Below are positions 5,056-6,775 of a stretch of DNA of 22,035 bases, piece after piece; the stretch's first letter is position 1, and every line of letters begins with the position of its first letter. The position numbers and the translations under genes were made by a program. The stretch lies in UHGV virus genome UHGV-0200595; one strand, given 5' to 3'. The stretch is from a virus. Under the pieces are notes generated by a model. The model was not told the DNA's origin and made no database searches. It saw only the letters and a program-made list of their open reading frames with translations.

Positions 5056-5931
5056 ATGCCAAAGTTCGCCATCGGCACCCGCCGCGCACCCTGCGCACTG
5101 GTCGATGGTGGACTTTTCAAATTTCAACATCGAGGCTGTATGTGCGAAGAATTAACAATCGTCTATCGCCCGTTAAATGAACTGATACCGTGTGCAAGAA
5201 ATGCCAGAACCCACAGTGATGAGCAGGTGGCGCAATTGGTCGCCAGTATTAAGGAATTTGGCTGGACAAATCCGGTGCTGGTTGATGAAAACGGAGAGAT
5301 TATTGCCGGACATGGTCGTGTCATGGCCGCAGAATCGCTTGGCATGGATATCGTTCCGGTAATTGTCCTTACGAATCTGACAGACGATCAGAAACGGGCG
5401 TATCGTCTGGCAGATAACCGGCTGCCGATGAATGCAGGCTGGGATGTGGAACTGCTGAGGCTGGAAATTGCAGATTTGCTGGATGCTGATTTCGATATTT
5501 CTCTGACAGGGTTTAACCAGGCAGAGATTGACGAACTGCTGACTGAAATTACAACAGACACAGAAAGCGGCGATGAGCCGTACACAGCAAAAATTGATAC
5601 GCCTGTTTATGAGCCGTCAGGAGAAAAGCCTGATATCGGAGAATTGTACGACGACGAGAAGACTCAGGAACTGGCAGAGCGTATCCGCAAAGCCGGGCTT
5701 GACCCAGAGATCGAAAAATTCCTCCTGAGTGCAGCAGAGCGGCACACCATTTTCAATTTCAGCAAAATTGCTGATTACTATGCTCACGCTCCGGCAGAGA
5801 TACAGGCGCTGTTCGAAGAATCCGCACTGGTGATCATTGATTTTCAGCAAGCCATTGAACACGGTTTTGTCCGTATGACTCAGCGCATGGTGGAGATCAT
5901 GCATGGAGATGAGGAGGAGGAATATGCGTGA
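5056..5931 (+). CDS. ParB-like nuclease domain (ParB/Srx fold) protein
   Basis: IVYRPLNELIPCARNARTHSDEQVAQLVASIKEFGWTNPVLVDENGEIIAGHGRVMAAESLGMDIVPVIVL...DISLTGFNQAEIDELL is a typical ParB N-terminal domain with a phage-type LTGF linker. An alternative start at ATG 5140 (SD GAGG) is just before the ParB domain. The stop overlaps the next gene. Confidence 0.75.
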   Translation: MPKFAIGTRRAPCALVDGGLFKFQHRGCMCEELTIVYRPLNELIPCARNARTHSDEQVAQLVASIKEFGWTNPVLVDENGEIIAGHGRVMAAESLGMDIVPVIVLTNLTDDQKRAYRLADNRLPMNAGWDVELLRLEIADLLDADFDISLTGFNQAEIDELLTEITTDTESGDEPYTAKIDTPVYEPSGEKPDIGELYDDEKTQELAERIRKAGLDPEIEKFLLSAAERHTIFNFSKIADYYAHAPAEIQALFEESALVIIDFQQAIEHGFVRMTQRMVEIMHGDEEEEYA

Positions 5932-6775
5932 TGATTTTTGCGCATTTATTCTGACCCACGGACGGCCGGATAATGTGCTGACATACCGCACTCTGCGCCG
6001 GGCGGGTTACACCGGAAAAATATATATCGTTGTTGATGACGAGGATAAGACCCGGCAGCAGTATATTCAGGCGTTTGGCGATCAGGTGCTGGTATTTTCT
6101 AAAACGGATATTGCCAGCCGCTTCGATGAAGCAGACAACTTTGGCGACCGTCGCTCAATCTTTTATGCCAGGAATGCCTGTCCGGACCTGGCAAAAAAGG
6201 TTGGGTGTAAATATTACATCCAGCTCGATGACGACTATCACGAGTTCCAGTTTCGGGTGGATCGCAACTATGACCAGGCCTATTTCCCGATAAGGAAACT
6301 GGATGAGATCCTTTCTGAAATGCTGGCGTATTACGAATCAATACCTGCGCTTTCCATCGCTATGGCGCAGGGTGGTGATTTTCTTGGTGACAATGGCGGC
6401 CACGCCGCATGGGTGAAACGGAAGGCGATGAACAGTTTTATCTGTTCCGTTGAGCGACCGTTTTCATTCGTGGGGCGCATTAACGAGGACGTGAACACAT
6501 ACACGAACCTCGGACGGTGCGGCGAACTGTTTATGACAGTGGGGGCTGTGCAGTTGGGCCAGAAGCAGACGCAGAAAAACAGCGGCGGCATGACTGAACT
6601 GTATCTGGATTCTGGTACCTACGTTAAAAGTTTTTACTCCGTCATGTATGCGCCGTCGTGCGTGAAAATCGCACTGATGGGCGCCAGCCATAAACGCATT
6701 CACCATCAGGTCACCTGGAACAACGCTGCAGTAAAAATCCTTCACGAAAAATATAGGAAGAAGACACCCTGCTAA
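5924..6775 (+). CDS. Soluble GT-A/GT2-like glycosyltransferase-fold protein (putative)
   Basis: 283 aa from ATG 5924 (SD GGAGGAGG), translationally coupled to the ParB-like gene. The N-terminal strand FILTHGRPDNVL resembles the GT2 'IPTYNRPELL' motif. IYIVVDDEDKT resembles the GT2 'VVDDGSTD' motif. YIQLDDDY is a DXD-like motif. No TM segments. Confidence 0.45.
   Translation: MRDDFCAFILTHGRPDNVLTYRTLRRAGYTGKIYIVVDDEDKTRQQYIQAFGDQVLVFSKTDIASRFDEADNFGDRRSIFYARNACPDLAKKVGCKYYIQLDDDYHEFQFRVDRNYDQAYFPIRKLDEILSEMLAYYESIPALSIAMAQGGDFLGDNGGHAAWVKRKAMNSFICSVERPFSFVGRINEDVNTYTNLGRCGELFMTVGAVQLGQKQTQKNSGGMTELYLDSGTYVKSFYSVMYAPSCVKIALMGASHKRIHHQVTWNNAAVKILHEKYRKKTPC

What the first reader, a model, noticed from the sequence alone, without database searches (positions are those of the whole stretch)
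5056..6775. ParB-like nuclease-domain protein translationally coupled to a soluble GT-A/GT2-like protein: candidate DNA- or virion-modification module
In many enterobacterial prophages the slot between lysis and terminase holds a ParB-like domain plus DNA methyltransferase. Here the methylase partner is replaced by a 283-aa protein with GT2-like signatures (FILTHGRPDNVL, IVVDDEDKT, QLDDDY). It is soluble, with no TM helices, unlike GtrB-type seroconversion enzymes. A methylase remnant lies elsewhere at 2154-2660. ParB/Srx-fold proteins partner with DNA-modifying enzymes in other systems, for example DpdB with DpdA. This pair could therefore glycosylate or otherwise modify phage DNA, or a virion or host target, as an anti-restriction strategy. 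I do not recognise this pairing as a described system.
Basis: inference. Interest (0 to 1): 0.75.

Follow-up and report, generated by a model that had tools for sequence, protein, structure and literature searches.

The report
ParB-partnered phage DNA-type glycosyltransferase cassette
Two overlapping late genes of this P22-like prophage encode a ParB-fold protein and a sugar-transferring enzyme of a DNA-glycosylating family. The pair recurs as a fixed cassette in phages of many bacterial phyla and one archaeal virus, yet no enzyme that makes the usual sugar-acceptor base is present.

Summary
A ParB/Srx-fold protein is encoded at 5056/5140-5931. It is translationally coupled, by an 8-nt ATGCGTGA overlap, to a soluble 283-aa GT-A glycosyltransferase at 5924-6775.

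The glycosyltransferase belongs to a described family, Pfam PF20691 TAGT ("TET-associated glycosyltransferase"; 123.8 bits). This family includes the T2/T6 second-glucose DNA transferase.

The main new result is that the pair is a near-obligate cassette. In 143 of 147 loci sampled, the partner lies directly upstream with overlapping stop and start codons. The loci come from Proteobacteria, Bacteroidota, Firmicutes, Actinobacteria, other phyla and a halovirus. The next large gene is usually a large terminase (at least 43 of 55 loci, four TerL families).

The constant partner is an undescribed C-terminal domain of about 115 aa. The ParB N-domain is optional. Partners that lack it sit in replication modules beside polymerase A and a beta-clamp homologue.

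Both genes are under strong purifying selection (dN/dS 0.06 and 0.10). The cassette occurs in about 16-18% of complete E. coli genomes. No TET/JBP or hydroxymethylase is found nearby or in two complete small phage genomes.

My best reading is a ParB-assisted, late-expressed DNA glycosylation module with an unknown acceptor (confidence about 0.5). I class it as a new variant of a known kind.

The parts
5140..5931 (+). ParB-like partner protein. It is 263 aa from the probable start ATG 5140; the longest ORF starts at ATG 5056 and gives 291 aa. It is acidic (55 D+E against 21 K+R).
   Evidence: Pfam ParB_N 38 bits. Foldseek matches Noc, ParB-CTP and KorB (E 3e-7 to 1e-5). dN/dS is 0.10.
5140..5440 (+). 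ParB/Srx (ParB-CTPase fold) N-terminal nucleotide-binding domain. It carries invariant N21, H25, G57-x-G59-R60 (a GHGR Box-II-like motif) and D92-N93.
   Evidence: The profile matches solved Noc/ParB structures over residues 1-96 only. Invariant columns are. pLDDT is 75-92. It resembles the N-domain of ParB-methyltransferase fusions.
5557..5928 (+). Partner C-terminal module. It has a disordered conserved peptide (PYTAKIDTPVYEPS...LYD) followed by a helical domain (FLLSAAERHTIFNFSKIADYYAH...SALVIIDFQQAIEHGF). This is the part that always accompanies the glycosyltransferase. It matches no Pfam family.
   Evidence: Stand-alone partners of 131-139 aa match only HMM positions about 143-263. No Pfam hit was found. 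The family has 1190 clusters at 50% identity, and in the 150 best matches listed the domain lies at or near the C-terminus.
5909..5931 (+). Translational-coupling junction. It contains the Shine-Dalgarno-like GGAGGAGGAA, the GT start ATG 5924, and the ParB-like stop TGA 5929-5931 (8-nt overlap).
   Evidence: Sequence. The same overlap occurs widely: 8 nt in 98 loci, 11 nt in 27 and 4 nt in 4, out of about 145 loci.
5924..6775 (+). TAGT-family (PF20691) GT-A glycosyltransferase, 283 aa and soluble. Invariant residues are R14, D38/D41, D102-D103-D104 (DXD), Q149/G151/D152, N187/D189 (E188 nearly invariant) and H260-H261.
   Evidence: dN/dS is 0.06. There is no TM segment.
7048..9539 (+). Genomic context, not part of the cassette: small terminase (7048-8127, Terminase_2) and large terminase (8124-9539, Terminase_3), immediately downstream in the same late transcription unit.
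   Evidence: The position upstream of terminase is conserved.

Best explanation
This is a two-protein, late-expressed nucleic-acid glycosylation module.

The 283-aa TAGT-family GT-A enzyme uses a nucleotide-sugar donor, through its DXD/metal site, to put a sugar on phage DNA after replication and before or during packaging.

Its obligate partner works through two parts:
- The conserved C-terminal module binds and activates the enzyme.
- The ParB-CTPase-fold N-domain holds the complex on double-stranded DNA, in the way that ParB homologues activate phage thymine dioxygenases on dsDNA.

In phages where the partner lacks the ParB domain, the cassette sits beside polymerase A and a beta sliding clamp. 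These may supply the DNA tether instead.

The likely benefit is protection of the packaged genome from host nucleases in the next cell.

What is shown:
- family membership, fold and catalytic motifs;
- translational coupling;
- near-universal co-occurrence of the two genes;
- purifying selection on both genes;
- late-operon or terminase-adjacent position, or a replication-module context.

What is inferred:
- physical interaction between the two proteins;
- DNA as the target;
- the activation role of the partner;
- an anti-restriction function.

What is unknown: the acceptor atom. No hydroxymethyl-pyrimidine source is detectable.
For: Enzyme identity:
- Pfam TAGT gives 123.8 bits (cut-off 27.5) and phrog_842 gives 1.2e-98.
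- The fold is GT-A and the nearest viral structures are TAGT-domain proteins (TM 0.77).
- The R...DDD...ED active-site motifs defined for phage DNA GT-A enzymes (bioRxiv 10.1101/2023.12.21.572611) are conserved (R14 and D102-D104 invariant; E188 nearly invariant, D189 invariant).

Cassette:
- 143 of 147 GT loci have the partner directly upstream on the same strand.
- Stop/start overlaps of 4, 8 or 11 nt occur in 129 of about 145 loci.
- The cassette is found in cultured phages of Lactobacillus, Nocardia, Porphyromonas and Vibrio, and in halovirus HHTV-2.

DNA context:
- At least 43 of 55 next large downstream ORFs are TerL, from four Pfam families.
- Partners with only the C-terminal domain lie between DNA polymerase A and a beta-clamp/processivity-factor homologue, or beside primase and helicase.
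- The ParB N-domain is closest to that of ParB-DNA-methyltransferase fusions.
- The partner has the same plan (nucleotide-binding domain, short helical segment, disordered linker, C-terminal domain, no DNA-binding HTH) as the ParB that activates 5mYOX176 on dsDNA (PMC13229309).

Selection and expression:
- dN/dS is 0.06 and 0.10.
- Apart from the minus-strand HicA/HicB pair, the genes run on the + strand from the Q-like antiterminator through lysis, the pair and the terminase.
- Phage c5 carries the pair as ORF1-ORF2 next to cos and has no annotated integrase.
Against: - No TET/JBP, ThyA-like hydroxymethylase or alpha/beta-GT is present in the window.
- None is present in Rac-like phage vB_EcoS-683R6, in L002/L004, or in the complete genomes of phages c5 and phi jlb1.
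- Every characterised DNA-acting TAGT relative needs a hydroxyl supplied by hmC, hmU or glucosyl-hmC. Canonical DNA bases offer none.
- The partner is strongly acidic and has no recognisable DNA-binding domain.
- GREB1, an animal TAGT-domain protein, is reported to glycosylate a protein (PMC7968844).
- I found no experimental data on this cassette in the searchable literature.
Confidence: 0.5

Rival explanations
1. Protein glycosylation. The GT O-glycosylates a protein rather than DNA. The acceptor could be its own partner, at the invariant Tyr/Thr of the disordered Y-T-x-K-I-x-x-P-x-Y-E-P peptide (glycogenin-like). It could instead be a packaging or replication protein, or a host protein.
For: - No hydroxylated base source is detectable.
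- The partner carries a conserved, predicted-disordered peptide with invariant Y148 and Y157 and near-invariant T149, directly before the helical domain.
- Glycogenin (self-glucosylating on Tyr) and the peptide S-glycosyltransferases SunS and ThuS are among the GT-A structural matches.
- GREB1, which has a TAGT domain, is reported as a protein O-GlcNAc transferase (PMC7968844).
Against: - Viral TAGT members with known function act on DNA (PMC13216743, PMC8256090).
- The constant genomic company is DNA machinery: ParB fold, terminase, polymerase A, beta clamp, helicase.
- The ParB N-domain subfamily is otherwise fused to DNA methyltransferases.
- A conserved disordered peptide is equally well explained as a docking motif.
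Confidence: 0.2
2. The cassette acts only on bases that are already hydroxymethylated. In one version it is the surviving half of a ParB-5mYOX-GT pathway, or it relies on an unrecognised hydroxylase elsewhere. In another version it glycosylates the hmC/hmU DNA of other (superinfecting) phages, as an interference or competition function.
For: - The family is defined by its association with TET/JBP.
- ParB, GT and terminase are the most frequent neighbours of phage 5mYOX genes (31%, 27% and 19%; PMC13229309 section 12).
- The same paper reports thousands of divergent 5mYOX-like sequences that lack the Pfam annotation.
- The NEB preprint speculates that prophage GTs could hypermodify invading genomes.
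- My Pfam census of metagenomic neighbours shows only the top 25 families, so weak TET_JBP hits could have been missed there.
Against: - Two complete small genomes, c5 (31.8 kb) and phi jlb1 (38.3 kb), have no annotated candidate gene. The one unannotated gap in phi jlb1 holds no large ORF. A few c5 ORFs of 155-208 aa of unknown function were not scanned.
- Strong purifying selection and conservation across phyla argue against a relic.
- The genes lie in the late operon, which is silent in a lysogen, and occur in a phage without an integrase. This argues against a prophage defence role.
Confidence: 0.15
3. Cell-envelope glycosylation, meaning seroconversion or receptor masking in the manner of TarP or Gtr. 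On this reading the ParB-like gene is only an unrelated neighbour.
For: - Phage GT-A DNA transferases structurally resemble the prophage teichoic-acid GlcNAc-transferase TarP (bioRxiv 10.1101/2023.12.21.572611).
- Foldseek hits include polysaccharide GT2 enzymes.
Against: - There are no TM segments.
- The same cassette occurs in Gram-negative, Gram-positive, actinobacterial, Bacteroidota and haloarchaeal viruses, whose envelopes are unrelated.
- Adjacency with overlapping codons in 143 of 147 loci rules out a chance neighbour.
- The genes are in a late-operon position and occur in a phage lacking an integrase.
Confidence: 0.05

Closest known systems
ParB-dependent phage thymine dioxygenases (5mYOX176/ParB176; O'Toole et al., PNAS 2026, PMC13229309)
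   Same: - A phage DNA-modification-type enzyme is encoded next to a dedicated ParB-fold protein.
- That protein has a nucleotide-binding N-domain, a short helical segment, a disordered linker and a C-terminal domain, and lacks a DNA-binding HTH.
- The genes lie near terminase genes.
- In that system ParB is required for activity on dsDNA.
   Different: - The enzyme here is a GT-A glycosyltransferase, not an Fe/2OG dioxygenase.
- Homology between the two C-terminal domains was not tested, because I had no ParB176 sequence.
- Here the ParB N-domain is dispensable in some lineages.
TAGT/GT-A glycosyltransferases of phage C5-MT/TET(5mYOX)/GT clusters (Burke et al. 2021, PMC8256090; bioRxiv 10.1101/2023.12.21.572611)
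   Same: - Same Pfam family (PF20691) and fold.
- Same R...DDD...ED active-site pattern.
- Post-replicative, with ParB and terminase genes nearby.
   Different: Those enzymes sit beside a methyltransferase and a dioxygenase that make the 5hmC acceptor. Here no such genes are found.
T2/T6 beta-glucosyl-HMC-alpha-glucosyltransferase (Ggt), the source of the PHROG/RefSeq label
   Same: Both score above the PF20691 threshold (T6 Ggt 35.8 bits, window GT 123.8 bits). Both have the GT-A fold.
   Different: - The relationship is very remote. hhalign is not significant and tblastn does not retrieve T-even phages.
- T6 Ggt adds a second glucose to glucosyl-hmC.
- T6 Ggt lies next to dCMP hydroxymethylase, with alpha-GT about 12 kb away and no ParB partner.
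- The label copied onto these prophage genes is therefore not a functional assignment.
Kinetoplastid base-J glucosyltransferase JGT and animal GREB1 (TAGT-related GT-A proteins)
   Same: They belong to the same superfamily according to the literature (PMC7968844; bioRxiv 10.1101/2023.12.21.572611). NCBI names the E. coli homologues 'GREB1-related protein'.
   Different: - JGT needs hmU made by JBP1/2.
- GREB1 is reported to act on a protein.
- Neither has a ParB partner.
- Similarity to them was not tested here.
ParB-N / DNA methyltransferase fusion proteins of prophages (phrog_498; PADLOC MTase_II PDLC03229)
   Same: The ParB N-domains are closely related (3.3e-53 and 6.4e-43 over about 140 residues).
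   Different: In those proteins the modifying enzyme is fused and is a methylase. Here it is a separate, translationally coupled glycosyltransferase reached through a distinct adaptor domain.
T4 alpha-glucosyltransferase working with the replisome (PMC13216743)
   Same: This is a DNA glycosyltransferase reported to associate with the replisome. It is an analogy for the variants with only the C-terminal domain, which sit beside a beta-clamp homologue.
   Different: T4 alpha-GT has the GT-B fold, is an unrelated family, and acts on hmC.

Membership tests
Pfam PF20691 TAGT (TET-associated glycosyltransferase) | Scores above the family's curated gathering threshold | tested here: met
   123.8 bits against a cut-off of 27.5, E 1.2e-35, covering profile positions 4-205 of 205. 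Homologues carry the precomputed PF20691 annotation.
Pfam PF20691 TAGT (TET-associated glycosyltransferase) | GT-A fold with a DXD metal/donor motif and the R...DDD...ED pattern of phage DNA GT-A enzymes | tested here: met
   R14 and D102-D104 are invariant; E188 is nearly invariant and D189 invariant. The AF2 model has a confident N-terminal half. Foldseek matches GT2/GT-A structures and viral TAGT models (TM 0.77).
Pfam PF20691 TAGT (TET-associated glycosyltransferase) | Genomic association with a TET/JBP dioxygenase or a pyrimidine hydroxymethylase that supplies the hydroxyl acceptor | tested here: not met
   None is present in the window, in L002/L004, in Rac-like phage 683R6, or in the complete genomes of c5 and phi jlb1. 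This rests on Pfam and annotation level evidence only.
Pfam PF20691 TAGT (TET-associated glycosyltransferase) | Transfers a sugar to DNA | not testable with these tools
   This needs nucleoside LC-MS or an in-vitro assay.
T2/T6 beta-glucosyl-HMC-alpha-glucosyltransferase (functional equivalog) | Close sequence relationship to T6 Ggt | tested here: not met
   hhalign of the A1 profile against T6 Ggt gives E 0.61. T-even phages are not retrieved by tblastn at 1e-3.
T2/T6 beta-glucosyl-HMC-alpha-glucosyltransferase (functional equivalog) | Co-occurs with dCMP hydroxymethylase and alpha-GT, which make its glucosyl-hmC substrate | tested here: not met
   These genes are present in T6 (hydroxymethylase adjacent to ggt, a-gt about 12 kb away) and absent from the window.
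ParB/Srx (ParB-CTPase fold) superfamily | N-terminal domain matches ParB_N and adopts the fold | tested here: met
   Pfam gives 38 bits against 26.3. The profile matches Noc/ParB chains over residues 1-96. Foldseek matches Noc, ParB-CTPgammaS and KorB at E 3e-7 to 1e-5.
ParB/Srx (ParB-CTPase fold) superfamily | Conserved phosphate-binding Arg (Box II GxxR) and Box III Asn | tested here: inconclusive
   G57-H58-G59-R60 and D92-N93 are invariant or nearly so. Their equivalence to ParB R95/N127 is inferred from motif position, not from a structure-based alignment. The catalytic Glu of GERR is replaced by His.
Canonical partition ParB (ParABS) | Full-length ParB model, an HTH DNA-binding domain, and a ParA partner gene | tested here: not met
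   TIGR00180 gives 41 bits against a cut-off of 58.45. There is no HTH family hit. There is no ParA-like ORF nearby; the neighbours are lysis and terminase genes.
ParB-dependent DNA-modifying enzyme systems (5mYOX-ParB type) | Adjacent dedicated ParB homologue with a nucleotide-binding domain, linker and C-terminal domain, and no DNA-binding domain | tested here: met
   Domain layout comes from the model and alignment. Adjacency holds in 143 of 147 loci.
ParB-dependent DNA-modifying enzyme systems (5mYOX-ParB type) | The enzyme is an Fe(II)/2OG 5-methylpyrimidine dioxygenase | tested here: not met
   The enzyme is a GT-A glycosyltransferase.
ParB-dependent DNA-modifying enzyme systems (5mYOX-ParB type) | Enzyme activity on dsDNA depends on the ParB partner | not testable with these tools
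   This needs co-expression or reconstitution.
Gtr/TarP-type envelope glycosylation (seroconversion) | Membrane association or lipid-linked acceptor machinery, and a lysogenic-conversion gene position | tested here: not met
   There is no TM segment. The genes are in the late operon between lysis and terminase. The cassette is also present in an integrase-less phage and in a halovirus.
Known anti-phage defence systems (PADLOC) | Match to a defence-system protein model | tested here: not met
   The GT has no hit. The ParB-like protein hits only the N-terminal part of a ParB-methyltransferase model.

The most novel reading that the evidence does not exclude
The cassette installs a sugar directly on a canonical, non-hydroxymethylated nucleobase of double-stranded phage DNA. 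The ParB-fold or clamp-tethered adaptor gives the GT access to the base.

This would be a DNA modification chemistry not yet described. It would be carried by prophages in roughly one in six complete E. coli genomes, and by phages of many bacterial phyla and haloarchaea.
Probability: 0.2. Interest if true: 0.9.

Novelty: new variant of a known kind. Interest (0 to 1): 0.62.

Why it matters
- Recent papers flag 'solitary' TAGT glycosyltransferases as an open problem. One counts them in 288 of 753 GT-encoding phage genomes (PMC13216743). Another finds about 65% of GT contigs without a base-hydroxylating neighbour (bioRxiv 10.1101/2023.12.21.572611).
- This analysis shows that the enzymes of this branch are not solitary. 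They come with a dedicated partner whose conserved C-terminal domain is undescribed, usually fused to a ParB-CTPase fold.
- That turns the question into a concrete experiment in E. coli: co-express two genes, then read out DNA and protein mass.
- If the target is DNA, there are two possible outcomes. One is a new base modification. The other is a hidden source of hydroxymethyl bases. Either would extend the newly found principle that ParB-fold proteins license DNA-modifying enzymes.
- Practical consequences would include phage resistance to restriction, sequencing artefacts, and new enzymes for labelling DNA.

Tried and rejected
- Iyer et al. 2013 (NAR), which defined TAGT, is not held in the library. 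What that paper says about ParB-TAGT pairs could not be checked.
- hhalign of the family profile against T6 Ggt found nothing significant. The link to the characterised enzyme rests only on shared Pfam membership.
- NCBIfam and PADLOC have no model for the GT. No solved structure matches it by sequence.
- I suspected that K-12 ydaY was the GT remnant, and rejected this. YnaK is the first 87 aa of the ParB-like protein, ydaY matches neither profile, and the GT is deleted in Rac.
- I looked for natural ParB-GT or CTD-GT fusions. There are none among 147 loci or 150 family representatives. P0241 is a short fragment that spans the overlap.
- The Pfam census of 150 neighbouring ORFs lists only the 25 commonest families. 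It cannot exclude a weak TET_JBP hit among singletons. Sugar-nucleotide genes (epimerase, nucleotidyl transferase) appeared once each, and I did not locate them.
- L098 was checked for those sugar-nucleotide genes. It instead showed a C5-methylase, a DUF4942 methylase and a Mor-like activator upstream.
- The afdb50 fold library was unavailable, so structural closeness to JGT and GREB1 was not tested.
- The promoter/terminator scan of 4600-7200 gave nothing above background that separates the pair from its neighbours.
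Full report
**1. What is in the sequence**

The window is the late region of a P22-like lambdoid prophage. On the + strand it reads, in order:
- DUF1367, YbcO and a Q-like antiterminator (DUF1133);
- a DNA-methylase fragment;
- holins, a GH108 endolysin and a small ORF (4701-4883) that I took to be a spanin but did not test;
- the two genes of the finding;
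- a small 83-aa ORF, small and large terminase, then P22-type portal, coat and injection proteins.

The first gene of the finding, 5056-5931, has a ParB_N domain (Pfam 38 bits; phrog_620 2.4e-80).
- Most homologues are 259-268 aa.
- Their alignment starts at the residue encoded by ATG 5140, which has its own GAGG.
- The true start is therefore probably 5140.

The second gene starts at ATG 5924.
- It is preceded by GGAGGAGGAA.
- It overlaps the upstream stop codon by 8 nt.
- It encodes 283 aa with no hydrophobic segment.

**2. What the two proteins are**

*The glycosyltransferase*
- It is a member of Pfam PF20691, TAGT or 'TET-associated glycosyltransferase' (123.8 bits against a cut-off of 27.5). 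It also hits phrog_842 (1.2e-98).
- NCBI's pipeline names the E. coli homologues 'GREB1-related protein'.
- The AlphaFold2 model has mean pLDDT 68.9. The N-terminal half is mostly 85-97 and the C-terminal third is poor.
- The model matches GT-A/GT2 enzymes in the PDB and TAGT-domain proteins among viral models (TM 0.77).
- The residues R14, D102-D103-D104 and E188-D189 correspond to the R...DDD...ED pattern described for phage DNA GT-A enzymes (bioRxiv 10.1101/2023.12.21.572611).
- The family includes the T2/T6 enzyme that adds a second glucose to glucosyl-hmC (PMC13216743). That relationship is remote. T6 Ggt scores only 35.8 bits on the Pfam model. A profile-to-sequence comparison is not significant.

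*The partner*
- Its N-terminal domain of about 100 residues has the ParB-CTPase fold.
- It contains an invariant GHGR motif and a DN motif.
- A short helical segment follows, then an acidic disordered stretch, then a conserved C-terminal module.
- That C-terminal module matches no Pfam family.
- The protein is not a canonical partition ParB. TIGR00180 scores below its cut-off, there is no HTH domain, and there is no ParA gene nearby.
- Its N-domain is most like that of ParB-DNA-methyltransferase fusions (phrog_498 3.3e-53; PADLOC MTase_II 6.4e-43).

**3. The pair is a fixed cassette**

This is the main result.

*How common it is*
- DNA similar to the pair, at about 82% identity, is found in 995 of 5426 complete E. 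coli genomes. In 851 of them the match covers at least 80% of the query.
- Protein-level searches find the GT next to a ParB-like gene in the following:
  - Lactobacillus phages phi jlb1 and c5;
  - Nocardia phage NTR1;
  - a Porphyromonas gingivalis phage, at 27% identity;
  - the haloarchaeal virus HHTV-2.

*Census of adjacency*
- I fetched 80 IMG/VR loci and 55 loci from different GTDB species. The species span Bacteroidota, Clostridia, Veillonella, Desulfovibrionaceae, Acidobacteriota, Saccharibacteria, an archaeon and others.
- I searched these with profiles of both proteins.
- In 143 of 147 GT-bearing loci the partner lies directly upstream on the same strand.
- The four exceptions are:
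  - a contig edge (L139);
  - an ORF-calling artefact (L090);
  - a degenerate GT (L145);
  - one locus where the partner lies about 1.6 kb upstream of the GT (L138).
- The GT start overlaps the partner's stop by 8 nt in 98 loci, 11 nt in 27 and 4 nt in 4.
- The two metagenomic relatives at about 62-64% identity show the same arrangement followed by terminase, portal and capsid genes.

*Selection*
- Between the window and E. coli homologues, dN/dS is 0.06 for the GT and 0.10 for the partner.

**4. Position and the optional ParB domain**

- In 55 diverse loci I took the first ORF of at least 380 aa downstream of the GT.
- At least 43 of these are large terminases. They belong to four different Pfam families: Terminase_6N 26, Terminase_3 13, TerL_ATPase 3 and GpA 1.
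- The position is therefore kept regardless of terminase type.
- In several loci the partner is only 131-139 aa. It matches only the C-terminal half of the profile.
- These short partners sit in replication modules:
  - DNA polymerase A upstream and a DNA polymerase III beta-clamp (processivity-factor) homologue immediately downstream (L127, L121);
  - a methyltransferase upstream and a weaker beta-clamp-like match downstream (L142);
  - primase, exonuclease and helicase nearby in Vibrio phage pv27.
- L121 also has a second TAGT gene.
- A search of 1.84 billion representative proteins with the C-terminal module alone finds 1190 clusters at E <= 1e-3.
  - In the 150 best matches listed, the module lies at or near the C-terminus.
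  - Of those 150, 114 carry the ParB N-domain.
- The constant element is thus the C-terminal module plus the GT. The DNA-clamp-like ParB domain is a frequent addition but a replaceable one.

**5. How it most likely works**

By family, the enzyme is a DNA-type glycosyltransferase. By context, it always keeps company with machinery that handles DNA.

A 2026 study showed that a phage ParB homologue is required for its neighbouring thymine dioxygenase to act on dsDNA (PMC13229309). That homologue has the same layout: a nucleotide-binding domain, a short helical piece, a disordered linker and a C-terminal domain, with no DNA-binding domain.

I therefore propose the following:
- The partner's C-terminal module binds and activates the GT.
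- The ParB domain keeps the complex on DNA. In other phages a neighbouring beta clamp may do this.
- Progeny DNA is glycosylated late in infection, before packaging.

In the window, apart from the minus-strand HicA/HicB pair, the genes from the Q-like antiterminator through the pair to the terminase are co-directional. The pair should therefore be expressed with the late genes (inference).

Interaction, activation, the DNA target and an anti-restriction benefit are all inferences.

**6. The unresolved problem**

Every characterised DNA-acting relative glycosylates a hydroxyl provided by hmC, hmU or glucosyl-hmC. I found no TET/JBP dioxygenase, ThyA-like hydroxymethylase or primary GT in any of these:
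- the window;
- an intact Rac-like phage;
- two Pfam-annotated metagenomic loci;
- the complete genomes of phage c5 (31.8 kb) and phi jlb1 (38.3 kb). The only unannotated gap in phi jlb1 holds a tRNA and no large ORF.

There are three possibilities:
- The acceptor is a canonical DNA position, which would be new chemistry.
- An unrecognised hydroxylase exists.
- The acceptor is not DNA.

The conserved disordered peptide at the start of the partner's C-terminal module (Y-T/S-x-K-I-x-x-P-x-Y-E-P) could be a docking motif or itself a Tyr/Thr acceptor. This keeps a protein-glycosylation rival alive. GREB1, a TAGT-domain protein, is reported to glycosylate a protein (PMC7968844).

Envelope glycosylation and a prophage defence role are unlikely for these reasons:
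- the protein is soluble;
- the genes lie in the late operon;
- the cassette is present in a phage without an integrase;
- the cassette occurs in viruses whose hosts have unrelated envelopes.

**7. Novelty and score**

- The GT family, the GT-A fold, and the general association of ParB genes with phage DNA-modification clusters are already in the literature (PMC8256090, PMC13229309, PMC13216743, bioRxiv 10.1101/2023.12.21.572611).
- Full-text searches found no paper that treats the ParB-TAGT pair as a unit or tests it. I could not read the 2013 paper that defined TAGT.
- Recent papers list GTs of this kind as 'solitary' and of unknown function.
- What is added here:
  - the near-obligate cassette;
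  - the undescribed partner domain;
  - the facultative ParB domain and its replication-module alternative;
  - the consistent absence of an acceptor-generating enzyme.
- I class it as a new variant of a known kind, with moderate-to-high interest (0.62). It turns an open question into a two-gene experiment in E. coli.

Noticed in passing
window 2723-3397, minus strand: A HicA toxin (3179-3397) and HicB antitoxin (2723-3154) pair lies on the opposite strand. It sits between the methylase fragment and the holin genes, inside the late region (Pfam 4.3e-17 and 2.3e-28).
   Followed up: partly
window 2154-2660: This N6/N4 DNA methyltransferase fragment covers only the C-terminal part of the Pfam model (positions 121-210 of 221) and positions 195-315 of a 333-position PADLOC model. 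It nevertheless matches nearly the whole of a 181-position PHROG (phrog_6952, 4.5e-81). This short form is therefore itself a recurrent phage gene.
   Followed up: partly
window 5056-5139: The longest ParB-like ORF has 28 extra N-terminal residues that most homologues lack. A GC-rich hairpin (GCAGCCC-TTCAATGA-GGGGCTGC, about 5029-5051) lies just before ATG 5056. The likely start is ATG 5140.
   Followed up: partly
window 6793-7044: An 83-aa GTG-start ORF lies between the GT and the small terminase. It resembles an internal helix-turn-helix part of a different small-terminase family (phrog_309, positions 145-218 of 319, 1.2e-16). An ORF of 210 nt occupies the same slot in E. coli relatives.
   Followed up: no
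L150 (E. coli K-12 MG1655, Rac prophage) 1878-2481: K-12 ynaK is only the first 87 residues of this ParB-like protein (profile positions 5-89). The rest of the protein and the glycosyltransferase are deleted, and ydaY is unrelated to either. A 2026 overexpression screen reports that ynaK raises the MIC of six antibiotics (PMC12924614).
   Followed up: partly
L121 691-6196; L127 5306-9962: In these gut-bacterial MAG contigs (Bacteroidaceae L121, Lachnospiraceae L127) the cassette, with a partner lacking the ParB domain, lies between DNA polymerase A and a beta-clamp homologue. L121 has two TAGT genes flanking the partner gene, which suggests sequential glycosylation.
   Followed up: partly
L098 1-6106 (Prosthecochloris MAG contig; phage-like region): A C5 cytosine methylase, a DUF4942 methyltransferase and a Mor-like late activator lie directly upstream of the ParB-like/GT pair. 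A gpA-type terminase follows the pair.
   Followed up: no
L149 (Lactobacillus phage phi jlb1) 11350-12746: There is a 1.4-kb stretch without annotated genes just upstream of the ParB-like gene. It holds a tRNA-Glu (12231-12304) and only small ORFs.
   Followed up: partly
P0279 (433 aa, metagenomic representative): This partner protein has two tandem ParB N-domains ahead of the C-terminal module.
   Followed up: no
window 7048-8127: The small terminase contains a lysine-rich, repetitive stretch (…KTAQKGAQKKTAQTAQKRTDKTGKKKS…). This coincides with the strong AT-skew peak at about 6500-7500.
   Followed up: no
Lactobacillus delbrueckii phages phiLdb, Ld17, LL-Ku, Ld25A (hits H54-H70): The glycosyltransferase gene is split or truncated in several cultured relatives of phage c5 (two pieces, 70% coverage, or only 16% coverage). 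E. coli JNEC-KY178 has a truncated ParB-like pseudogene with an intact GT. The cassette is therefore dispensable in the laboratory and decays in some lineages.
   Followed up: no
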